DNA from: Callorhinchus milii
Lineage: Eukaryota
Assembly (NCBI RefSeq): GCF_018977255.1
Contig: NW_024704742.1
Location: forward strand, 93,684,001-93,748,000
Direction: 5' to 3'
DNA length: 64,000 bases
Shown piece by piece: positions 1,410 to 17,128 of this stretch. The notes under the pieces are model-generated. The model was not told where the DNA came from. It ran no database searches and saw nothing but the letters and a program-made list of their open reading frames with translations. Position 1 is the first letter of the stretch. Each line of letters opens with the position of its first letter. Position numbers and translations under genes: made by a program.

Positions 1410-2905
1410 TCAACAACAATAACAATTTGGATTTATATAGCGCCCTCCACGCCAGACGGAGTCTCAGAGCGCGTCACAGTAACGGATCCCGGGGCCGAGC
1501 CAGGGGGAGGATGGTGACCAAAGGCGCGGTCGAAAAGAAAGGTCTTCAGCTGAGACTTGAAAGTGGGAAGAGAGGGGGCGAGGCGAAGGAGTGAGGAAGG
1601 GAGTTCCAGAGCCTTGGAGCGAAGTGGCTGAAGACACGGCCGCCGATGGTGGAGCGGAGGACTCGGGGGACAAGGAGGAGGGCAGACCCGGTGGAGCGAA
1701 GGCAACAGGCACTGTTGTGAGGAGAGAGGTCAGAGAGGTAGGGGGTGCAGAGGAGTGGAGGGATTTGAAGACATCTTGAGGATCTTGAAGTTGATCCTTT
1801 CTGGTTCAGGCAGCCCGTGCAGTCTGGCAAGGACTGGGTAATCGGGGAGCGGAGTTTGGTGCGGGCAGGAATGCGGGCGGCAGAGTTTTGTATGACCTGG
1901 ATTTTATGAACGGTAGTGGAGGGGAGACCGGCAAGGAGTACATTTGAAGAGTCCAGCCGAGAGATGACAAAGGCATGGACCAGGGTTTCAGCGGCTTTTG
2001 GAGTCAGGTATTGGTGGAGACGGGCGATGCGTTGCAGGTGGAAGAAAGCGGTGCTGGTGAGGGACCGAATGTGGGGGAGGAAGGATAATTTGGGGTCGAA
2101 CCTGATGCCTAGGTTGCGTATGGGTTCAGAGAGTTTTAGGGGGAGGTCGGGTAGGTGGAGAAGGTGAGAACCATGTGATTTTAGATGTTGATGAGAGCCA
2201 AAGAGTATGGCTTCCGTCTTGTCAAAGTTCAGCTGAAGGAAATTTGCGCTCATCCAGCTCCTGAGGTCTGACAGGCAGGCTGACAGAACATCAGGGGACT
2301 GGGGGTCGCAAAGTGAGGTAGAAAAATAGAGTTGGGCGTCATCCTCGTACATGTGGAAGTGTACCCCATGTCTGCGGATGGTATCCCCAAGAGGGAGCAT
2401 ATAGATCAGAAAGAGGAGGGGGCCAAGGATGGATCCTTGGGGTACCCCACAGGTAACCAGGTGAGAGCGGGAGGAAAAGCTGTTTATGCAGATGTACAGC
2501 GGGCGGTTCGAGAGGTAGGTCTTGAACCGGGCGAGTGCGGTCCCACTGAGGTGGTTGACGGAGGAAAGGTGGTGGAGGAGGATGACATGATCGACTGTGT
2601 CGAAAGCGGTGGAGAGGTCCAGGAGGACGAGGAGGCAGAGGGAGCCCTGGTCACAGATAAAGAGGATGTCATTTGTGACTTTCACAAACGCAGTCTCTGT
2701 ACTGTGGTCAGGGCGGAAACCGGACTGGAGGGGTTCGAAGAGGGAGTGGGAGGAAAGGTGTGCGCGGAGTTGATTGGCAACAATGCGTTCTAGGATCTTT
2801 GCGAAGAAGGGCAGGTTAGAAGTAGGGTGGTAGTGGCTGGGGTTTGAGGAATCTAGGGAAGGTTTTTTGAGGGGGGTAATAACAGCAGTTTTGAGGAGGG
2901 GCAGG
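1410..2905 (-). mobile_element. 5'-truncated L2-clade LINE (RT domain + 3' UTR, (GTT)n tail)
   Basis: ORF 1546-2685 has LLDLSTAFDTVDH, GVPQGSILGPLLF, MYEDDAQ (degenerate YADD), WMSANFLQLN and L2-type HAFVISRLD; frameshifted C-terminus. Confidence 0.95.
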
Positions 2906-3812
2906 GTTTTTAAAAGTAGTTATCGAATCAGCCTCGACCACCCTTTCAGGCAATGCGTTCCAGATTCGAACAACTCATTGCGTGAAAAAAATTCTCACCT
3001 CCCCTCTGCTTCTTTTAGAGACTATTTGGAATCTGTGACCTCGAGTCACCGACACACTCACCAGTGGAAACAGTTTTTCCCTTTCTAACCTATCAAATCC
3101 CCTCATGATTTTGAAGACTTCTATTAGGTCTCCTCGTAACCTTCTCTGCTCCAATGAGAATAATCCCAGCCTCTCTAGCCTTTCCTCATAATCAAGGTCC
3201 CTCATTCCTGGTACCATCCTCGTAAATCTCCTCTGCATCCTTTCCAATGCCTTAACATCCTTCCTATAGTGTGGTGCCCAGAACTGGGCGCAGTATTCCA
3301 ACTGAGGCCTAACCAGTGTTTTATATAAGTTAATCATAACCTCCTGACTCTTGTACTCTATGCCCCTATTTATAAAGCCTAGTATCCCATATGCCTTTTT
3401 TACAGCTTTATCTACCTGTCCTGACACCTTCAAGGATTCAATTCAAGAATTCCCAGGTCTATCTGTTCTTTCACCCCCCTTAAGATTGTATTACCAGCCT
3501 ATATTGCCTCCCCTCATTCTTTCTACCAAAATGCATTACCTCGCATTTCTCCATATTGAAACTCATCTGCCATGTGTCTGCCCATTTTACCATTCTGTCT
3601 ATGTCTTCCTGCAATTGGCTCCAATCCTTTTCGCTGTTTACCACACTACCTAACTTTGTGTCATCCCCAAACTTGGAAATGGTGCTTGCTATACCCAAGT
3701 CCAGATCGTTTATGTATGTTAAGAAGAACAGTGGTCCTAATACCGATCCCTGGGGGACGCCACAGTACACAGTACGCCTCCAGTCAGAAAAGCAGCCGTT
3801 CACCGTTTACGA
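2906..3812 (-). mobile_element. CR1-clade LINE fragment (RT C-terminal part)
   Basis: GVPQGSVLGP, KFGDDTKL, KCEVMHFG, LYKTLVRPQLEYC, LEQRRLRGDLIEVFKI; frameshifted. Confidence 0.95.
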
Positions 3813-4280
3813 GTTAGGAGGTCACAAATACGACTAGTGCAAATTAATGTGTAAACACAATTCTTAAGGATTATAGAATCCGCTTTCCCCATCATTAATT
3901 CGATAATTAGGAGCACCTGTAGTTCTCTCTGTAAATACGTTTACACAACTCATATAATAAATGTGGATTACACAACTTGTAAAATAGACCACAAAGTCTA
4001 TCTGCCTGCTTCTTCTATCCGCTTATTTAATTTGTTGAAGGCTATCGCCTACTGTTGGGACTTTGAATGCAACATTGAGAAATAATTTTCACATATGATT
4101 ATCCTAATGCATTTGAATGCATGTTATACAAAGTACGGCATAAGATTATAGTAATTTAAATACATAATATTGAATTTAATTGTGAATACCATTTTATAGT
4201 GTCCCCACTTTGTCAGAAAACAATATTTGCTACATTACAACATTGGGATAAGTTATGTAACATTTGTTCTGATAACTCAC

Positions 4281-4400
4281 CTTCATTTTCCCACTGTACT
4301 TAGGATCAGAAATGGTCTCAAAAGCAGCTTGTTTGCTCTGCTGAACAAACTCCGGGAATTTGTGAAATACTTGTTCACAGACTCTTTTGACAGTAGATGC
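4281..4400 (-). CDS. ERCC6L2: ERCC6L2 coding exon 9 (gene continues beyond window start)
   Basis: [43 protein letters not shown]| acceptor and AAG|GTGAGT donor. I did not find the next exon in 1-4280. Confidence 0.96.
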
Positions 4401-4854
4401 CTTAAGAGAGATTAAAAAACATTAATTTGTACTCCACCCCCTAATCAAATGCTGTTTCACTCTATGTATTGAAAGAGCAAAAGATTCATAACATTAGAAT
4501 GGATTATGGATCAACAGAAAGCTTCTACAGGCCACATCAAGCCTACTCCTTTTGTAGACCAGATACAATCAATTCTGTCGTGGATTTAACCCAACCTATT
4601 CAATCTCCTCAAGAGGTACCAACCACCATCCCAACATTTATATAGTGTCTTTCACATCAGCTGAAGGTTGCAATTAAGAGAGGTAAAAGCGAGGGGGTGG
4701 AGTGGAAGGATTGCCAAAGGCATTATCACAAGCAAGTTCTCTGAGAAATTTCACTAATTATGAAAGGCAAACAAATGAACCTCCATCATATCAGTGATCC
4801 ATTAGAATCTAGATCATGTGGGGAGCGGGGGTGCGGGAGAAAAACTTATTGTGC

Positions 4855-5235
4855 ATCAGTCTGGCTCAGCTGGTAGCATTCTTTTTCTCTGTGGGTTGAA
4901 GCCCCACTTATAGTCTAGGCTGACACTCCAATGCAGGCTGGGGGTATGGCATTGTTGGAACTGCTATCCTTCAGATGAGACATTAAACAGAGGTCTTGTC
5001 TGCCTGCTCAGGAGGAGGTTAAAGATCCCTTGGGTACTATTCAGAAAGAGAGGGAATTTCTTTCGATATCCTGGCTAACAATCCCCCAAATAAAATTGGT
5101 CATTCATTTCATGGCTGTTTGAGCGATATTGCTTTGTGCAAATTAACAGTTACTCCACTTTACAATATAACCTGAGAAGTGCTTTGAGAGGTCTTTCCGA
5201 CGTGAAAGGCACTATACCAAATGTAAGGATAATTA
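4855..5235 (+). mobile_element. Old tRNA-headed Deu-domain SINE
   Basis: TGGCTCAGCTGGTAGC head; GATGAGACATTAAAC..GTCTGCCTGCTCAGG..AAAGATCCC..CCTGGCTAACA Deu-like body; L2-like tail. Confidence 0.75.
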
Positions 5236-5769
5236 CATATCAGTTTACACAATCATAATGGAAAGTATTGCCTTAACTCCCTGAGTTTCACTGCACTGGA
5301 ACATCAATATATTAAATAATTAAATGCAGTATTCAACTAATGAATGTGATTAGTTTATATCAATCTTTCTACTGTTTACAATTTATTTTAAAAAACAAAA
5401 AAGGGAAAAATATGCATTCTTTATTACATATTCTGTTGGTAGAAACCATCAATGCAAGGAGCACATAAAATCCCAAGTTACTTGGAAATCTCTTTGATCT
5501 CAATCTTCAAAACACTATATTTGAACAGTTGCACTGTAACCTTCTAACTTCGTTTAGTCTTTTCCCCACAGAACAGCTTCTTAAGTTAAAAGTTTCTGAA
5601 TACCTGACACATCAAAGTGAAACTGCATGGTCTCAGAGTCAAAATGCATAACTGCTGCCCAGCCAGACTACATAAACCATACTCCAAAGCTATTTCCAAA
5701 ATCAAGTCCAATAAAATTAAACCAGTTTGGAATTACACTAAGCTGCAGTTTCAGTGATTTTAGAAAATA

Positions 5770-6143
5770 TAGTAACCTCTGGCTTACTGGACTCCGTCTA
5801 TCTGGAATTCGTAATTAGCCGGGCCAGGCCTGGATAGGATTTTTTTTAAAAAAAATTTGCATGCCCACGCACGTGTAGACTCCTGCCAATCCACTCTTCT
5901 AGCTCTCGCCCCCGCCTCACTGTCCTTGCCGGCCTTCATCTCAGTTTGAGACCCATGAGCTTATTCTCTATCTCTTGCTCGCTGGATTCAAACAATTTCA
6001 ATGCCAGTACCGGCATTTTTTTTTGCTCTGAACAAAGCCGCCGCCGAGAAAAGCCTGTGAAGGCCAGTGCCAGCATTGTAATTACACTTAGCCAGACGAG
6101 ATGGTTCTTCCCTCCATTGGTCCAGTTATCCAGGGTTTTAGTG
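5770..6143. mobile_element. Tc1/mariner (pogo/Tigger-like) non-autonomous element
   Basis: Degenerate TIRs TAGTAACCTCTGGCTTACTGGAC and GTCCAGTTATCCAGGGTTTTAGTG, flanked by TA on both sides. Confidence 0.6.
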
Positions 6144-6853
6144 TAAAACCAACTGAGAAATAATTATATCAGATTATGGATTCCTAAAAATTGAAAGTGA
6201 AAATGTAATATGGCAAGTATGCATGCCATACTTGTCACTTGTATTTGCTAATGGGTACTAAATTATCAAAGTCCCCAGCTCAAAGTTGCTATTTGCCAAA
6301 CAAAACTAAGAAACTGCTTATCTAGCCAAAACATTCACTAGAGATAAACCAAAGCTTTTACATAGGTCTGTTTAGACTGGTCCTATGGCCCCAGTTCACT
6401 AAAGCTGTTTATTGGAGATCTACTGAAATGACATTCTGCAATTGTTTGCAAAAGCATTGAATGATTCTGCACCGTTTTACAAATCAACAATGATTAAGTC
6501 ACTTTGCAGATTACTACATTTAGTTGGTCCTCAAAAAGCTTTGGGAATTGAGCCTTTAATACTACAATAACATTACTTACTGTTTTTGTGTCAAGTTCAC
6601 TAATAAAAGTACAGTCAATTCACTTTACAATGAATCCTGTGAAGTAGTTTGAGACGTTCTTCTGATGTGAAACGTGGAATATCAAACACAAGTGTTATTT
6701 ATTTATGAAATTACTCACTTAAAGTCATTTTAGCACAACTACATATATGAAGAACTGAGAAGACCCATGAGGAATTGAACTCAGAAGACTGAGCTCCCAA
6801 CAATATTTTACAAATAGAGATTTGCTATTCCATAAAAAAATTCAAATGATTAC

Positions 6854-6970
6854 CTGCATCTTACTTGTGCTATCATCAGGCTGCAGCAATGCTACATGAT
6901 TCGATACCTTCCGCAACAAGGCCAAATAACTAAAATAGATTTGTCGGACTGTATTGCCATATTGATTTTG
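6854..6970 (-). CDS. ERCC6L2: ERCC6L2 coding exon 8
   Basis: QNQYGNTVRQIYFSYLALLRKVSNHVALLQPDDSTSKMQ; TTTTCAG| acceptor and CAG|GTAAT donor. Confidence 0.96.
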
Positions 6971-7701
6971 CTGAAAAATAAAAATGTAATGTTTAACATG
7001 CCAATATTCTCCATCTTTTCACTCACTCCTCTGAAGCCACTGATATGCACTGTACATGTGGTTCCATGAATGTCAGCACCCAAGGGTCCGTTTCTCGTGT
7101 GTGAATCGAGTGGAAGGGGGGGGGGGAAATCATTGCAAAGCTTGAACCTGTTCTCACCTGAAGTCCACACATCCTTAATTTCCAGAAGTAGCTGGATAGT
7201 ATTTTCTTTATGTGATGCTAGACAATGATGGTTTGCTGTTCTAAGGTTGTGGCTAAGATACTTTAACAGAGAAATCATCCTCTTTTTCTTCACTCCCTCC
7301 TCCCAGTTTCAGCACAAAGATACAGCCAAGTTTCTCTCAAATCCTCAATATTTCAGTACAGAACAGGAAACCAGCTGAATTAAGTTGTTTTCCTCTATTA
7401 TTTGGCTTTGGGACAGCAGACCACATGCAAGATGGCATTCGCAATGTCCAGCATCATTGTGGAAACAGGTCACTGAAGAAAGGTAAGTGTGTGAGTGGAA
7501 GGTGGCATTAATTTGCAGCTCTCCACATTCACATTTCATGTGATAATTATCACAAGAAATGCACTATGGAACATCATGAATCTCACCCCGTGGCTTTAGA
7601 AAGAAATGCATGCAAGTGATACTTATATTTATTGTGCTAACATGGTATCTAATCTCAAGCGAATCTGTAACAAGAACATCTCTTAACATTCTGTGGCTGA
7701 C

Positions 7702-7842
7702 CTTGTAACAGCAGCTTTTCCTTTTTCGGCCACTGTTGCAGTCGCATGGATCCCAGCCACGCAGCACCAACATCATGTCCTCAGTCTGCAGCACTGCCTG
7801 ATATACCATCTTCTGAAACTCTGTTAGAGAGCAGTATACCAC
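7702..7842 (-). CDS. ERCC6L2: ERCC6L2 coding exon 7 (Cys-rich insert)
   Basis: [50 protein letters not shown]| acceptor and AAG|GTCAG donor. Confidence 0.96.
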
Positions 7843-8304
7843 CTGAAAACAGGCTGAGAATTCAGTGCATTTTCCTCATAGGTGACCCGTTAAACTACTC
7901 AACAGCATTACCTACTAGCCCATCTTAGCTATTTTCAACAGCTGATATTAGCTTACTTTTTTATAACCAAATTTAGGCTAGATTATACTTGACAACAACT
8001 TGTATTTATACAGTGCCCTTCACGCAGGATAGCATCTCGCAAAACAAGATGATTTGCTAAAGTTTTAAATCTACAACTGCATAGTAATGTATAATAACTA
8101 TGAATATATATTATAACTTATGTGACTTCAGTGGACATTTATATAAATAGCTATTCAAGGTCACCAGCTCTACACAAAGCTGGGAAATAAGATTGTCTGA
8201 GAGTCTCTTCCTATGGGTACTTATAACAAGACAACTGACCTCCTGGTTATCAAACAGAATTTGCTGGCTGCAATAAACAGCAGCAAATAGAGCTTCATTC
8301 TCAC

Positions 8305-8512
8305 CCGGTCATCTTTCTTTGGTAGCTGGTCACTGATAATAGCCTTTGTGCGTCTCAAAAACCAATAGGACATTTGTTTTGCCAACTTTCGCATGGCCTT
8401 TCTTCCCATAGCCAGCTCTCTTTTCGTTGCTGTGTGCCTCTGACCAAACTCAATTGGATTACCAAAATCTTCCTTAAAACGGCTTCTGTTGCCTAGGCAT
8501 CCTGTTACTGCC
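8305..8512 (-). CDS. ERCC6L2: ERCC6L2 coding exon 6
   Basis: [72 protein letters not shown]| acceptor and CGG|GTGAG donor. Confidence 0.97.
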
Positions 8513-10169
8513 CTGCAAATATCAAGGATTCCAAGTTATTGCATTATCTTGATCACAGTGATTGTGTAAAAAAAAATCAACACACCAAGTTATAATTTGT
8601 AAATTTATATGCACACGTCAGCACAAAATAGGCATAATACAATTTGTGTATTTTCTAAACATCCGTAATGCTCAAATGTTTTGATTAGATTATTTGCTGT
8701 ATTCTTTTAAGTGTCAGTAAACTATATATTCTTATGTTTACACTTTTTTTGCCTTTTATTTGGGCAATTTTTTACGACTGTAAACAATTTTAGATTTCAT
8801 CTCCCTTGCACGCAGCCTTATCAAGAATTCAAGATGTTTGTACTTCCATTGACTGTAGTAATGCAAATGACATGAGCACCAATAAAAATGTAGCTCAGCT
8901 CTCTAGGAATCTATTAGTTAAAACAAATGGTATTATTAAAACAAATGCTGATGAAAAAGTTGCACATCACACAAACATAAAACAATAAATTTGGTGAAGA
9001 ATGATACACAGGTGTAGGTTTAAACCACTGAATCAAGACATTAAGATGGTGCCATCAATCCCTGAAATTATTTTTTATCTGTGAATTCTGCTGATCTAAA
9101 GTATTTGTTCCACTGAGTGTACATATTGTCAAAGGTCTTACTGATGTGGTTTGACATTATTTTGCTTTCATTTCCTCTGATTTTGTTTTCAGATCTTACC
9201 ATGCAATCATTTTAAAGTCATACTTCATTAAATTGCTGCATTTTTTTGGATGACCTTTGAACAACTTTATTTCTTGCAGATTCTGTAACCTTCTGAGAAA
9301 GTTCCAAAAGTGCCAAGAACCTGAATACTCATTCTTCAAAGAAATAATGTCACCCTACAGCAGTAACAATAATTAGGATTTATATAGCATCCTTCACATA
9401 GGACAACGTCATGGAGTCCTTTACAATGGTTCATCCCAAGGTACAGTTACCCCACTTTACAATATATCCCGTGAAACTCTTTGAAACATCCTCCTGACGT
9501 GAAAGGTGCTATATCGAATGTCAGTATTATTGTTATTAGTACAAGAGGAGAGGGGGAAGTGAAATTAGACGCGGGCAAAGAAGTAGTTCTTAAGGCATGA
9601 TTTTAAGATTTGGATGGGCGTGGTGGAGGGAGGGAGGTAAGTTAGGGGATGTGACTGAAGTGGGGGGGAAAGGGGATGGGGGATGTGCGGGGGGGCAGGG
9701 GATAGGAGGGGCGGGGCAGAGGAAGAGAGCGGAACGAAAGAGAATCTGCAAAAAAAGATGGGTTTGAATGGTGGGGTTGGCAGAATATTGCGGAAGTTTT
9801 GCTCGACTGACGTGGGGGTCAGGATTTATTGATAATTTTCCCGAGGAGATAGCCTTGGTGAGATGAAGTTTGTGATCATTTTGCATGGACTGTGGAAGGA
9901 CCAGGTTTGAGAATTTGTTAAGTTTTTCATTCCATGTGTCCTTACCTTAACTGTACCTTGTAGACAGAAGTTCAACAATCCGTTGCCAATTAAATTTTTT
10001 TGGAATATGCATAAACGATCTCTGAGAGGAATAGGTGATTCGAAAATACAGTAACAGATATCACTAAGATGTGCCCTTACTCAACCAAATACCACTCCCC
10101 CGCTCCCCCACCCAGTGCTTCTGTAAACATAACAATCAAATGAGTAGATAATTTCTCCTGGTTACAGTT

Positions 10170-11508: not shown

Positions 11509-12714
11509 TCAACGCATTGACACAAATGCCAAGGGGACCTGCCATACACCACTCTTATGCAGGTTCTCATGTGGTGACAGAAAGCCATTAGCCATGTTGT
11601 GCCATGTCAGAGTGCCCACTCCTTTAGACTATGCTAGATTATATGGGTGAACCTAAAGAGAGGAAGAAAAATAAAGAAACAGGGAGGAGGGAATCAAGAG
11701 TCATGGAAATAAATGAATAGTTTTATTTAAAATCCCTTTATGGACTAGAGTATTTTACCAATAATTTCCTACTGTATTCAAAACAAACAACTACATTTAA
11801 CAGAATATATACTGCACTGTCAGACTCACTACATTTATTTGGTTTGCTTTTGTTTCAGAGGAAGGAGAGGGGGAAAGGGATTGCATGTACACTCTGTAAT
11901 GTTACAGTGAAATTGTTACAAAATCAATAATAGTTGATAATTTGCATCCAAAGAAAAAGGTAGTAGTTTAAAATTCAATATGAATTGGTTAAGAAAAAAA
12001 CACACGAACTCATTTAATAGAAAAGTGAAAGTAGTTCAATAGCTCACACACGCCCTTGAAGTCTGACAGATAGTTGTGACTTGTGGCATTGTTGGACTGA
12101 CCTGTCATTCAAACATACCTCACTTCACTGCATGAGTTTAGACAGTACTTAATTAGATGGGCACTGATATAACCTAATAACAACTATTACAACACCCACA
12201 AGCAATGGTGGCACTGAAAGAAGTGCATAGGCCATCCCGGCCTGTACTCGAGTGAAGAGATACACAGTAGCACGTAAAAAGGAAGTGGGAAATCATTAAG
12301 GAATATTTTATCATTGAAATTAATTTGACTTGACTTGAGAGAACGTTCAAAGCACTACAATAACAAATTACATTTGTATAGCACCTTTCAAGTTGGGAGG
12401 AGGTCCCAAGGCGCTGGATTGTGAACATTCTGAACTCACGTCCCTCAATGTTAAAAGAAATAAATAAATCTCACTCTGCACTGCAGTCAAATTGCACAAA
12501 TCACTACTAAACTCAATATCTTTCCCTCTCCCAATAACCCAATTAGTTAATGCATTATTATTTAGCAAAGTATTAAGCTAAATAGGTAACACTATGGCTA
12601 CCTTCAAAGAGACTTGAGTATTTCAAGCCAACCTACATTTAACATACATCAACCCATAGAGCCATCAACTCCTTTCAAAATAATCCAATTTTAAATAAAT
12701 TAAACTGTTTTCAC

Positions 12715-12908
12715 CTGTTGATGTCGTTCAAGCAGAGACGGAGTGTTTCATAGGTTGTCAAAGCAATCTCGCATTTCTTTCGTCGAATGCCTCTGAAAGC
12801 ATGATCCTTTTTGTTGCCATGCAAAATATAGACTCTAAAATATCCCCAGGTTTCCAGCTCTTCCTTCCAGTTATACAATACAGACAAAGGTGCAACTATT
12901 AGGAAAAT
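12715..12908 (-). CDS. ERCC6L2: ERCC6L2 coding exon 4: motif Ia
   Basis: Translated by hand: [35 protein letters not shown]...[24 protein letters not shown]| acceptor and AG|GTGAA donor. Confidence 0.97.
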
Positions 12909-14009
12909 CTAAAGAAGATAAAAAAAAACTGGTGTATAAAAGAAAAGGAATTTGTACTTTTTTCTTTGATGTGAAGTGAAAGGCTCATAATTAAGCGTCT
13001 ATTTAATAGTAAAGATGGCAATGGGCCAACCTGGAAACAGTAGAATAAGTCATGAATTCTCTAATTATTTCAAACATATATATGTTTTGAATTAAAAACA
13101 ACTCTCATAAGGAATACAACATAGTAAAACTTACATAGGTCTTATCTTTATAAATTGTATAATTCCGATAATTGCTCAATGGGAAGGAATGTGTGCCCGA
13201 GCTGCGGACAGAAGATGGTGGCACTGATCTCACACATTTCATGCCAAGCTGTGTTGCCCACAGGGAAGCTCACAGATAGTTCCTGGTACCTGCTATCCAC
13301 CTAGTGAGGGCTCAAACCTGCGCTTGTCGGATGTTGAATAACCAACTTGTGACTATCTTCTTCGGGATGGGTGGAAGGAAGAAGTAAGTGGGTCTCCAAA
13401 GTGTTCAAGAATATTTTCTGAGGTGTGTAAGGCAATACCAATATAACAGTCATACCAAAAAATATACTGGATCAGGCCAGGACTTCCACGTTGATGGATA
13501 ATTTGATAGCTAGTAACAGCTTCCATTACTTTAGAAAGCACAGATGTAAAAGTAATAGAGTGGTGGTTTGAAGGTAAGTTTACAGTTCAAATCTGTGTCC
13601 TTATGCTAAGGCATTAAATAAAAATGCTAGCCATTAAAATAAGGACTCAATCACACCTGCAGATAATACTCTAGAGCATTTTGTAGATTGAACATTCTGG
13701 AATAGCTTATAGATCTCCTGCTGTGAAAGGGACAAGGTGAAGTGGCTTAGAAATTCCTATCCTGTGAAACGGGACATATTGGAGTAGTTTAGAGAGCTTT
13801 AAGTCTTAGAGTGGGAATAGTGTAAGAGATTCCTACACGTTGAATCGACATGTTAAATGGGCTTAATGATTCCCACCCGATCTACAGCAGGGAAGAGTTC
13901 CATGGGATAAACATTAGCAGTGATATAGGTTATTGGAAGTCATCTTTTTCTTTTAGAAGATGACATAATAATACTTAAAAGTAGAAAAATCGAAGCTCCT
14001 TACTGGTCC

Positions 14010-14141
14010 ATTTTCAATAGAGGAAACAACATCTGATTCCTATCAAACGTCATGAAATGCTTTTACATTATTGGTGTCACAAATTAGTGTTCATAGATGT
14101 TGTAAATGAAGACAGATGAACGTAAAACCACACAATATATC
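14010..14141. repeat. Arm 1 of ~130-bp inverted repeat flanking coding exon 3
   Basis: Reverse complement of 15010-15139, ~83% identical by hand alignment. Confidence 0.92.
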
Positions 14142-14353
14142 CCCATTTCCCTGTACCTTGACCAATAGGGACAAGTGATATACCTAAAAGGAACTTTTTA
14201 AGGAATATTTCAATGTACCTGCTGTGGAGAGTTGATAAACAGGTTTCAGCAAATGGTTGCAAACATATTACTATTGATGGATTATTGAAGCAAAAATTAC
14301 ATTATTTCCAGGAAGATGAGACTTGTAACAAGATTTAGGCTATAAAGAATTAC

Positions 14354-14473
14354 CTTGTCATGAATGGCTCTTGATTCCTTCTTCATACTCTTCAGTACAA
14401 ACTCTGGCATGTTATTTTCAATATCCTCACGGGTCCCCCTTTTATGAAGTACAGCTGCCAGAAAGGAAATAAC
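14354..14473 (-). CDS. ERCC6L2: ERCC6L2 coding exon 3 (120 nt, phase 0-0)
   Basis: [43 protein letters not shown]| acceptor and AAG|GTAAT donor. Confidence 0.97.
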
Positions 14474-15009
14474 CTGTGAAAGAATGTTAGAAATTTGGAA
14501 AGATCCAATCAACTTTTTTTCATATCTAACAAGACTACAATATTTCCATTCAAAGCATTATTTATACACAGGAATCAGTTCAGGACAAAGAAAACAAACA
14601 CAACAAAACGATCATTTCAAATAACCCAGTGAAAGAGTAAGATCTACTTTTAAAGGAGCTGAATGAATATGGTCAGTATTGCATGTGGTAAAATTATTGA
14701 CTCAACTAATACACTGTATCACCAAACACAATAACAACTTGCATTTATATAGCATCCTTCATGCCGGATGGCATCTTGGAGCACTTAACAGTGGCGGAGC
14801 CAAATACATGACTAAATATCTCAATTTCAAGTCTTACTGAGTGGCGGGTCTGTTGTTCTGCCAGGGACAACCCTTCTCATTGTGGTCTTGCAGCTAAACA
14901 GATCCCAGTGTTGTAAAGTGATAGATCTAAGTGTTGTAGACTTCATACCGTAGTATTAATAATCCTTGCATTTTACATATCAACTTTCACATCAAGAGAA
15001 CATTTCAAA

Positions 15010-15139
15010 GATATATTTTGTGGTTCTCCACCCATCTGTCTTCATTTAAAATATCCATGAACACTAACTTGTGACACCAATAATGTAAAACACTTCATGC
15101 CATTTGATGTAAATCAGATGTAATTTCCTCTTTAAAAAT
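15010..15139. repeat. Arm 2 of ~130-bp inverted repeat flanking coding exon 3
   Basis: Contains TTGTGACACCAATAATGTAAAA, the exact reverse complement of TTTTACATTATTGGTGTCACAA in arm 1. Confidence 0.92.
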
Positions 15140-16565
15140 ACTGAGTTCTACTGAATTCGCTACATGGGGAGGAGCAATTGCACTTGCGCACTTCTCCCTA
15201 CTCAATTATTTTGTAACTGACAACAAAGGGGATAGCTGAGCCCAGCTAGCCTTCTGCAGCGATTCCAAACACAACAGCAGCCATTTGGAGCGGCAAATAC
15301 TGAACAGCGTTCTCAAAGGTCAAGCTCAGCATGCTCAATCGACACCTTTTTAAACAATATCCCTTATTGCGCAATTGCCCACACAGCCTCAAAAGGTACT
15401 GTTTCAGCTGTTCCATTCAGCACACAAAGTAGTAAGTTCTGTTGTCCAAATTCCAGAAATGCACCGAAGAGGAAATGACTTTGTGGGACAAAGCAGAGAT
15501 GCTGCAGATATTTTTCCTTTTTTTAAAAAAAAGCTCATCAGAAAGCATTTTGTTATATAGAATTTTTAAAAGAAATTTCTTGCGCAAGTGGTCTTTATTT
15601 AAAACCCCGTCAAAAAGAGAGAACGGAATGTTGGAACTGAGTCAATCCCCTGTGGCAATCTCAGTAGTCTGGTTCCTGAGCCAGGTGGATCCGAGGTACA
15701 CTAGGGCACAGCTGATAACAGCCTAGCTCATCGGCAGTACTTAGAAGGGCAAACCAGTCACTGGGGGTAGGAGTTCTTCCCACTCAGCTCCTGTTAAACC
15801 TGCAAGCCAAAGTGCCCTAATGGGTAAGGTGGACCCATGGTCAAGCTGGAGACTTGACAGGCAGTACTCTCAATGGCAAGGTATTTAGTAGATTAACCTC
15901 CAGTTGTACCTCAATCAAATCCTGTTTTAGTTATGAAAATCACAGTGGGAGAGAGAGAGAGCACAACTTTCTCACTGTTCCTAACATGAGAACCTACTTT
16001 GGAGGCCTAGAATGATGCTTTCTGTACCAGCCCCGCAAAATAATTCCCCAGCTTTAAACTCTGCAGTAAACTTTTGTTCCATAAGACTGAACTACACCAA
16101 GGACAATGTGATACCAGAATCTTAACAGAACTTAAGTGAAAGCATACCATGGGTTAGTATCTCTGGACTGGCTTTCATCCTCAGCATGGAAAGGCCTTTG
16201 CAACATTAAAGTGTACACATCTCTTCTTTTAAAGATGGGCAAAGCATTTCTTAATTTGTCTTCCACCAAACAAGTGCAATGTAGATTTAAACGCACAGAT
16301 ATAAGCTACATTCATAATTCTATGCACAGATCTAAGCAAAATTCTCATGCTGTTCACAAAATTGCATGTCAGTTTCAAGCTTAATGAAAATTCTATAAGA
16401 TACCTGAGCCCAATGGAAAACAAAATAATTTAGAATGTTAGGTAAGGGGTTCAGGACTCCCAAGGAACCACATCAATGAATGTAGCGATTCCCTGACTCC
16501 AGGAATCATACCAATTGCCTGGACTCTGGCAAACCTTCACAAGTTTCTTTAGTGATGCTCATTAC

Positions 16566-16987
16566 CTGTATGGTTTTTCCAAGTCCCATATCATCGCCAA
16601 GGATGCATCCTTTACCACTGATGTAATGCTTGTACAAAAACTTGATTCCATTTCTTTGGTAATCTCGTAAATATCTGTTAATAGTGTACGGTACACATAC
16701 ACCATCCTCAGATAACTTCAAAGAAACCGCAGGGCCTGGAGGCTTTTTGTCATGGAAAAAGGGCTTCTCCAGATCCTCATCATCAAATATAGAACCCTGG
16801 AAGGGTTCCTTCTTTTTTCTCCTTCTAAGCGTGTTAATTAGCACAGTTTCATCATTGAAGCTGGAGAATTTTACAATTGCTACAGTTTTTCCGTGTTCAT
16901 CTGTAGATATAGTCTTCACTGTAGCCTCGTACAGCTTCCCGTCTTTGGAAAATGGTGCAAGAACCTGATCACCTGGGTACCAGCGCT
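16566..16987 (-). CDS. ERCC6L2: ERCC6L2 coding exon 2: Tudor domain and SNF2 motif I
   Basis: Encodes RWYPGDQVLAPFSKDGKLYEA...IFDDEDLEKPFF...PYTINRYLRDYQ...GCILGDDMGLGKTIQ, closely matching ERCC6L2. TAG| acceptor and CAG|GTAAT donor. Confidence 0.97.
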
Positions 16988-17128
16988 CTAAAAATAGAAG
17001 GATCAGCAAAGAAATAAAATTAATACGAGACTTTAATGCCAGCCACAGTATGGAAAAATTACTGACAAGCCACAGTCAGGCTCAATCTGTAAACAAAATT
17101 GTTAATTTCCAAAAATTTCCATATGTAC

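What the first reader, a model, noticed from the sequence alone, without database searches (positions are those of the whole stretch)
14010..15139. ~130-bp inverted repeat bracketing in-frame ERCC6L2 exon 3, with G-U-biased mismatches on the transcribed strand
Seen: 14010-14141 and 15010-15139 are reverse complements (~83% by hand, with a 22-nt perfect core). They sit ~210 nt downstream and ~540 nt upstream of the 120-nt phase 0-0 exon. The arms do not resemble the SINE/LINE families in this window, and I saw no third copy. Of 13 transition differences I counted, 11 would form G-U pairs in the minus-strand pre-mRNA and only 2 would be A-C. Known: flanking intronic complementarity can drive exon skipping, back-splicing and ADAR editing. 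Inference: an RNA duplex loops out the exon between Walker A and motif Ia, giving an in-frame, probably ATPase-defective isoform or a small circRNA. Caveat: transcription-associated mutation asymmetry (sense A>G) produces the same bias without selection.
Basis: partly seen in the sequence, partly recalled or inferred. Interest (0 to 1): 0.7.

Follow-up and report, generated by a model that had tools for sequence, protein, structure and literature searches.

The report
Inverted intron copy around ERCC6L2 exon
A 130-base piece of intron DNA is present twice, head to head, on either side of a small exon of the elephant-shark DNA-repair gene ERCC6L2; it is likely an ordinary DNA-copying accident of a kind found about every 200 kb nearby, and although it is predicted to fold the RNA into a loop, the one transcript seen keeps the exon.

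Summary
Window 14010-14141 and 15010-15139 are reverse complements (111 of 130 aligned bases). They have no third copy in the genome and bracket a 120-nt, frame-preserving ERCC6L2 exon. The 11 G-U versus 2 A-C count is correct.

The regulatory reading is not shown. A 1.664-Mb survey found 8 such low-copy local inverted pairs, and inverted pairs bracket 5 of 15 internal ERCC6L2 exons examined. The G-U excess is not transcription-linked mutation bias (same-gene background 0.46-0.47; nominal p about 0.006-0.011). But 4 of the 11 sit in one 7-nt cluster, pair-breaking transversions are not depleted (6 versus 7.0 expected), and about one case this extreme is expected across the scanned windows. One probable RNA run shows exon 3 spliced to exon 4 and arm A identical to the genome; contigs cannot exclude minor forms. 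Skipped isoforms are recorded in 6 of 202 other proteins but 0 of 52 named cartilaginous-fish ones. No relative's DNA was available, so conservation is untested.

Most likely a template-switch inverted duplication with at most incidental RNA effects. The scan noted this kind before at other elephant-shark genes (unchecked notes).

The parts
15010..15139 (-). Arm B: 5' arm of the predicted stem in the pre-mRNA, in the intron before the exon; unique DNA
14010..14141 (-). Arm A: 3' arm of the predicted stem, in the intron after the exon; reverse complement of arm B at 111 of 130 bases
   Evidence: covered without differences by contigs of runs X5 and X6
14061..14082 (.). 22-nt perfect core shared by the arms (partner 15069-15090)
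14119..14125 (.). Cluster of 5 mismatches in 7 nt (4 G-U, 1 transversion); possibly one mutational event
   Evidence: permutation P = 0.05
14354..14473 (-). ERCC6L2 exon 3, 120 nt, phase 0-0; codes most of the helix after Walker A plus an insertion longer than in CSB
   Evidence: joint to exon 4 in run X5
14142..15009 (-). 868-nt loop between the arms; holds the exon, both splice sites and a short interspersed-repeat piece at 14720-14801
16566..16989 (-). Upstream exon (Tudor-like part to Walker A), ends in phase 0
12715..12908 (-). Downstream exon 4 (motif Ia region), starts in phase 0

Best explanation
Two 130-base reverse-complementary copies of unique intron DNA bracket ERCC6L2 exon 3, and they likely arose when a replication or repair polymerase switched template and pasted a backwards copy about 1 kb away; they have likely decayed since without being kept for a function. 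Shown: the two arms, their uniqueness, the class of similar pairs nearby, and inclusion of the exon in one probable RNA run. Predicted: the pre-mRNA can close a stem of about 130 bp that leaves both splice sites in the loop. Inferred: any skipping, back-splicing or A-to-I editing that the stem causes is minor and incidental, and the G-U excess is mostly chance plus one clustered change. Which arm is the original is unknown without an outgroup.
For: (1) Two copies only, so it is not a transposon family. (2) It belongs to a background class: 8 low-copy pairs among 1,465 local inverted pairs in 1.664 Mb. Of 4 others searched genome-wide, 3 are also two-copy and 1 has a weak third hit. One lies in another ERCC6L2 intron with no mapped exon between its arms. 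This extrapolates to about 4,800 per genome (Poisson range 2,100-9,400). (3) 5 of 15 internal ERCC6L2 exons examined are bracketed by some inverted pair, so bracketing is not special. (4) Transversions that break pairing on either strand are 6 against 7.0 expected from same-gene neutral pairs. Four of the 11 G-U lie in one 7-nt cluster; counted once, 8:2 gives p 0.03-0.055. Two of the 11 are CpG in arm A against TpG in arm B, ordinary deamination. (5) About 1.1 cases at one-sided p<=0.011 are expected among about 100 comparable pairs in 653 windows (window count). (6) Run X5 holds a contig joining 14354 to 12908 with GT-AG ends at depth 59.5, and a contig across arm A with no difference in the arm; X6 also matches arm A. 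(7) 0 of 52 named cartilaginous-fish proteins with Walker A lack the exon. (8) Template switching is known to create inverted repeats (PMC5453318 passages; PMC8421209 passages; PMC7954356 abstract).
Against: The G-U excess is real and on the predicted strand: 11 of 13 against a same-gene background of 0.46-0.47 (p 0.005-0.006). Only 3 of 266 matched blocks of neutral inverted pairs reach it on that strand. The strand energy gap is -24.1 kcal/mol against -5.4 to +3.8 for the 7 other pairs, and those 7 show no pooled bias (28:23). The arms carry only 2 gap columns, where three of the other pairs have 9-23. Exon-3-less isoforms are on record for 6 of 202 other proteins, so the exon can be skipped. 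The published template-switch searches that I read cover short, very local events (templates within 100 bp in PMC8421209), not a 130-nt copy 0.9 kb away, so the origin is inferred by analogy. No junction microhomology could be tested. The RNA evidence is contigs only, from runs whose RNA status is a guess, laid on one side of the exon.
Confidence: 0.68

Rival explanations
1. The duplication was co-opted: selection keeps a pre-mRNA stem that loops out exon 3 and tunes ERCC6L2 by in-frame skipping (an ATPase-defective protein), by a 120-nt circle or through ADAR binding. The G-U excess records that selection.
For: 11:2 on the transcribed strand, not explained by local mutation bias. Largest strand energy gap of the 8 pairs. 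The stem is kept in both the minimum-energy and the centroid fold. Contigs of X5 run from exon 3 into the intron through arm A, so unspliced sequence holding the arm is present in that run, if it is RNA. Skipped isoforms are recorded for jerboa, sifaka, orangutan, pig, sea lion and a potoo. Looped-out exons have lower inclusion, and complementary pairs are enriched around circRNAs and at edited sites (PMC8052449 section 10 and passages). Reverse-complement matches drive both skipping and back-splicing in C. elegans zip-2 (PMC8330042 abstract).
Against: No transversion deficit, one mismatch cluster, and the look-elsewhere count. The exon is included in the spliced contig seen. 0 of 52 cartilaginous-fish proteins lack it, though 0 of 52 against 6 of 202 is a small difference and these are mostly predicted models. 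All 6 skipped records come from amniotes, whose introns I could not examine. PMC8052449 section 10 reports that stable conserved pairs avoid looping out exons.
Confidence: 0.18
2. The stem forms and has a mild selected role other than skipping, for example holding the two introns together, slowing their removal, or acting as an editing substrate in some tissue, with normal inclusion of the exon.
For: It fits the G-U excess together with inclusion of the exon. An intron contig through arm A stands at depth 11.5 beside 59.5 for the spliced contig in X5; contig depth is a poor measure and DNA in the run is not excluded. PMC8052449 proposes that such structure can protect against premature intronic polyadenylation (passage).
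Against: There is no direct evidence. The contigs over arm A carry no A-to-G change as the majority letter. The statistical weaknesses of the G-U signal apply here too.
Confidence: 0.09
3. The arms are two independent insertions, or the terminal repeats, of an old low-copy transposon or MITE.
For: The outer span of 1.13 kb, and 0.8-1.6 kb for several sister pairs, recalls DNA transposons (own knowledge).
Against: No third copy at E<=10 or by core patterns. The spacer holds an ancestral host exon in its normal orientation, so it cannot be one inserted element. No Pfam hit in 84 of 84 frames from the spacers of six sister pairs (a weak test, since exon 3 itself had no hit).
Confidence: 0.05

Closest known systems
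Template-switch / MMBIR templated inverted insertions (PMC5453318 passages; PMC8421209 passages; PMC7954356 abstract)
   Same: A reverse-complement copy of nearby unique sequence that creates a new inverted repeat; two copies only; can form RNA structure without selection.
   Different: The arm (130 nt) and distance (0.87 kb) are larger than the events those searches target (templates within 100 bp in PMC8421209). It is old (15% diverged) and no pre-event allele is at hand, so switch points and microhomology are not shown.
Reverse-complementary matches (RCMs) in introns flanking skipped or circularised exons, e.g. C. elegans zip-2 (PMC8330042 abstract); inverted Alu pairs (recalled)
   Same: One arm in each flanking intron, opposite orientation, long predicted stem, short in-frame exon in the loop.
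   Different: No skipped or circular product was seen, no deletion test exists, and the arms are unique DNA rather than SINEs.
Pairs of conserved complementary regions, PCCRs (PMC8052449 section 10 and passages)
   Same: Intronic long-range complementarity below -30 kcal/mol, clear of the splice sites, looping out an exon.
   Different: PCCRs are defined by cross-species conservation, which could not be tested. This pair is far longer and looks like a duplication. ERCC6L2 is not named in that paper's main text or in its 5 held supplementary files.
ERCC6L2 / Hebo alternative splicing in human (PMC4886357 passages)
   Same: Same gene, with the Tudor domain followed by the SNF2 ATPase.
   Different: The described switch is a donor within exon 14 (short versus long form); 'exon 3' has 0 occurrences there. 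A human circERCC6L2 listed in PMC10779679 spans 26.6 kb and 337 nt (passage), so it is not a single-exon circle of this size.

Membership tests
Local templated inverted duplication (template switch / MMBIR) | Reverse-complement copy of nearby sequence | tested here: met
   111 of 130 bases, 868 nt apart
Local templated inverted duplication (template switch / MMBIR) | Source is unique DNA, two copies only | tested here: met
Local templated inverted duplication (template switch / MMBIR) | One arm absent from the ancestral allele; microhomology at the switch points | not testable with these tools
   No relative's genome is held; all 24 listed runs carry one species code
RCM driving exon skipping or back-splicing | Complementary arms in both flanking introns | tested here: met
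RCM driving exon skipping or back-splicing | Skipped or back-spliced product exists | tested here: inconclusive
   Inclusion joint seen in 1 of 4 runs laid (3 RNA guesses, 1 of unrecorded kind); no other exon joint listed; contigs only, one side of the exon laid, 255 loose ends not shown
RCM driving exon skipping or back-splicing | Product depends on the arms | not testable with these tools
   Needs a minigene or a genome edit
PCCR (conserved long-range RNA structure) | Both arms conserved across species | not testable with these tools
   No related genome or run
PCCR (conserved long-range RNA structure) | Substitutions favour pairing | tested here: inconclusive
   G-U 11:2, nominal p 0.005-0.011; 8:2 after collapsing one cluster, p 0.03-0.055; transversions 6 against 7.0 expected
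ADAR-edited long intronic duplex | Long predicted duplex | tested here: met
   -156 kcal/mol
ADAR-edited long intronic duplex | A-to-G differences between RNA and DNA in the arms | tested here: inconclusive
MITE / DNA transposon terminal inverted repeats | Dispersed copies in the genome | tested here: not met
MITE / DNA transposon terminal inverted repeats | The span between the repeats is an inserted element | tested here: not met
   The span holds an exon shared with other vertebrates
Rfam structured RNA family | Match at the family's gathering score | tested here: not met
   3 matches in 12500-17000, all far below the cut-off, none in the arms
ERCC6L2 (SNF2 family) host gene | Identity to named ERCC6L2; Tudor then SNF2 ATPase with Walker A | tested here: met

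The most novel reading that the evidence does not exclude
A copying accident was domesticated: selection visible as an 11:2 G-U excess keeps a 130-bp pre-mRNA stem that loops out the post-Walker-A helix exon of ERCC6L2. This gives an in-frame, ATPase-dead isoform (or a 120-nt circle) as an off-switch for a DNA end-joining factor, and the same exon is skipped in amniotes by other means. Thousands of similar two-copy inverted duplications in this slowly evolving genome would then offer a strand-asymmetry test for which intronic stems are under selection.
Probability: 0.13. Interest if true: 0.6.

Novelty: new member of a known kind. Interest (0 to 1): 0.22.

Why it matters
As it stands it matters little: it is one more local inverted duplication in an intron, and the transcript seen is normal. 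If the G-U excess does reflect selection, it would be a case of a mutational by-product turned into a splicing control on ERCC6L2, a gene whose loss causes bone marrow failure in people (PMC4886357, listing and passages). The reusable point is the method. Two-copy inverted repeats of unique DNA occur about 5 times per Mb here, so G-U versus A-C counts by transcribed strand, over the whole genome, could test for selection on intronic RNA stems without any outgroup.

Tried and rejected
No RNA holder listed: the run search listed none on record as RNA; X5-X8, X11, X13, X15, X19 and X20 are guesses, and all 24 rows carry one species code. I laid 4 of 24 runs, on 12600-14385 only, so arm B and the upstream exon were not examined and a skip joint could not have been listed as a joint.

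Blanks, none of them proof of absence: no skip or back-splice contig is visible; the depths of the bins at the exon edges are fully explained by the two known contigs, and the spliced contig crosses the 5' edge of exon 4 unbroken, but contigs drop rare forms and 255 loose ends and 1,174 pieces were not shown. X6 and X7 have no cover on exon 4. X5, X6 and X7 (one study) have no cover at 12960-13079, where X1 has; this could hint at a transcript end near the repeat at 13.1-13.4 kb, but a filter leaves records out and only a weak TATAAA lies there. I did not pursue it.

Transcription-linked mutation bias as the cause of 11:2: rejected for this gene (0.471 over 48 pairs; 0.46, CI 0.39-0.53, over 13 disjoint pairs). 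Those repeat pairs may carry subfamily differences that dilute a bias. ADAR-driven genomic A-to-G as the cause: cannot be polarised without an outgroup, and 2 of the 11 sites fit CpG decay. Rfam: nothing. Exact 22-nt core in metagenome contigs: 0 matches. A Patched-family search to orient neighbouring genes gave no hit on C1, so the transcribed strand of six of the seven sister pairs is unknown. Pfam scan of sister spacers: 0 of 84 frames; the 7.4-kb spacer was left out. One AT-rich pair listed in the 864-kb survey did not reappear in the 1.664-Mb survey and is not counted. The structure model is of a ray orthologue and of low confidence (mean pLDDT 59); it is used only to place the helix.

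Print: searches listed no paper on ERCC6L2 exon-3 skipping or on this repeat; the library lacks most subscription papers. Supplements: PMC8052449, 5 held files, 0 hits (two of the three search terms were recalled aliases, and the full pair catalogue may not be among those files); PMC7759564, one file of 294 characters, 0 hits, so its shark circRNA table was not seen.

Full report
1. The observation. Window 14010-14141 and the reverse complement of 15010-15139 align over 132 columns with 111 identities, 19 mismatches and two one-base gaps. The perfect core is 22 nt. On the minus strand the mismatches are 11 G-U, 2 A-C and 6 transversions. The predicted duplex is -156 kcal/mol on the minus strand and -132 on the plus strand, and the stem is kept in the minimum-energy and centroid folds of 14000-15150. 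The loop is 868 nt and holds the exon 14354-14473 (120 nt, AG/GT, phase 0-0). The arms end 536 nt before the acceptor and start 212 nt after the donor, so they cover neither splice site. No Rfam family matches the arms.

2. The gene. The upstream exon's peptide is 100% identical to ERCC6L2 of Callorhinchus milii. A named full-length record maps to 17 minus-strand exons from window 16988 to about 36 kb left of the window; the first nine residues were not mapped. The exon begins two residues after GLGKT. Its first residues align with the same stretch of human CSB, and in a low-confidence model of a ray orthologue (mean pLDDT 59) they form residues 158-165 of helix 154-165, followed by two weakly predicted helices. 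Skipping would keep the frame but remove most of the helix behind the P-loop, so loss of ATPase activity is a reasonable inference. It is not tested.

3. Copy number. Genome BLAST with either arm returns only the two arms. A 22-nt core with up to 2 mismatches gave 1 outside hit (control 1). An 18-nt core with 1 mismatch gave 18 outside hits (control 5 in all). None of these 19 extends: flank identity is 0.21-0.34 against 0.27 expected. It is not a dispersed repeat, and since the span holds an exon shared with other vertebrates it is not one inserted element.

4. Background. In 864 kb around the locus I found 632 local inverted pairs, 6 of them low-copy. In 1.664 Mb there were 1,465 local inverted pairs (arms of 50 nt or more, up to 10 kb apart), 8 low-copy including this one, with spacers of 230, 635, 868, 960, 969, 1064, 1406 and 7429 nt. 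Four of the other seven were searched genome-wide: three have two copies and one has a weak third. One lies in another ERCC6L2 intron with no mapped exon inside. The rate is 4.8 per Mb, about 4,800 per genome (range 2,100-9,400), if this region is typical. Counting interspersed repeats too, 5 of 15 internal ERCC6L2 exons examined have an inverted pair across their flanking introns. A unique inverted repeat around an exon is therefore not surprising here.

5. The G-U excess. This is the one feature that sets the locus apart. P(11 or more of 13) is 0.006, and 3 of 266 matched blocks reach it on that strand, 6 of 266 on either. The other seven low-copy pairs pool to 28:23, and their strand energy gaps are -5.4 to +3.8 against -24.1 here. 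Four points cut it down. Four of the 11 lie in a 7-nt cluster of 5 mismatches (permutation P 0.05); counted once the split is 8:2, p 0.03-0.055. Transversions, which break pairing on both strands, are 6 against 7.0 expected, so only A-C is short (2 against 6.4). Two of the 11 are CpG against TpG. About 200 such pairs, about 100 with enough transitions, are expected in the 653 windows read in this genome, giving about 1.1 cases this extreme by chance. I rate the signal suggestive, not compelling.

6. RNA. The run search listed 24 runs, all under one species code and none on record as RNA. I laid 4 of them as contigs on 12600-14385. X5 holds a contig that joins 14354 to 12908 with GT-AG ends at depth 59.5, so exon 3 is spliced to exon 4 in that run. 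X5 also holds a 1,099-nt contig, 13285-14383, that runs from the exon into the intron through arm A at depth 11.5; it may be pre-mRNA or DNA. That contig and an X6 contig over 14006-14166 show no difference from the genome in the arm.

7. Isoforms on record. Among proteins with the Walker A motif, 0 of 52 named cartilaginous-fish records and 6 of 202 others lack exactly this exon (7 and 29 more lack Walker A and were set aside). The six are jerboa, sifaka, orangutan, pig, sea lion and a potoo. These are the 120 best of 535 hits plus the listed members of 20 clusters, mostly predicted models. They show that the exon can be skipped in amniotes and give no sign of it in the group that would carry this repeat.

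8. Mechanism. Most likely (0.68) a polymerase switched template during replication or repair and wrote a backwards copy of 130 nt about 1 kb away; the copies then diverged by 15%. Such events are known to create inverted repeats without selection (PMC5453318, passages; PMC8421209, passages; PMC7954356, abstract), though those searches target shorter and closer events. The origin is inferred. The stem is predicted. Any effect on splicing is untested and, by the one run, not dominant. The rivals are a selected skipping, circle or editing switch (0.18), a milder selected role with normal inclusion (0.09) and transposon remnants (0.05).

9. Comparison. It works like, at most, an RCM or PCCR: looped-out exons are included less, and such pairs are enriched around circles and at edited sites (PMC8052449, section 10 and passages; PMC8330042, abstract). 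Membership in either needs conservation or a product, and neither is shown. The human splicing switch described for this gene is at exon 14 (PMC4886357, passages). Searches listed nothing on this exon or repeat. Earlier notes of this scan describe the same kind of element at TBC1D9, PCM1, PRAG1, VAX2 and MAML3 in this genome. I read them after my own survey, did not check them, and do not count them as support.

10. Verdict. The feature is real and correctly described. It is a new member of a known kind, with one unexplained statistical oddity. Interest 0.22. The boldest reading left open, a selected in-frame off-switch, has probability 0.13.

Noticed in passing
G000:C1:92884001-94548000 (loci L006-L165 and the window): Eight low-copy local inverted pairs; six have spacers of 0.6-1.4 kb although pairs up to 10 kb apart were allowed. 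This may point to a mutational process with a length scale of about 1 kb.
   Followed up: partly
L025:8426-8478 and 9439-9491 (G000:C1:93682426-93683491): A second low-copy inverted pair inside ERCC6L2: 53 nt, 89% alike, 960 nt apart, within one intron, G-U split 2:2.
   Followed up: partly
L036:5499-5719 and 6689-6886: Two-copy inverted repeat of 221 columns, 76% alike, 969 nt apart, with no strand bias (10:9).
   Followed up: partly
L077:9077-9127 and 9358-9408: Near-perfect, GC-rich inverted repeat (50 of 51 bases, 230 nt apart); probably a recent event.
   Followed up: no
proteins P0084, P0093, P0116, P0119, P0182, P0280: ERCC6L2 records of five mammals and one bird join Walker A directly to the exon-4 peptide, lacking exon 3; my searches listed no paper on this isoform.
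   Followed up: partly
proteins P0124, P0129 (Chiloscyllium punctatum) and P0034 (Natator): Other predicted variants at the exon 3-4 boundary: a 23-residue extension after exon 3, and loss of the start of exon 4.
   Followed up: no
window 13123-13375, 14720-14801, 15622-15914: Interspersed repeat pieces in the two introns; they form no inverted pair across exon 3.
   Followed up: partly
window 13376, 13473, 13677, 13749, 12920: Single-letter differences from the reference outside the arm in contigs of X1, X5 and X6, likely alleles.
   Followed up: no
864-kb region: Fifteen low-copy local direct duplications, including one of 2.4 kb at 95% identity about 116 kb left of the window.
   Followed up: no
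G000:C2:6.15-6.38 Mb: Five Patched-domain (PF02460) loci close together, four with one TAA inside the best match; a possible gene-family expansion.
   Followed up: no
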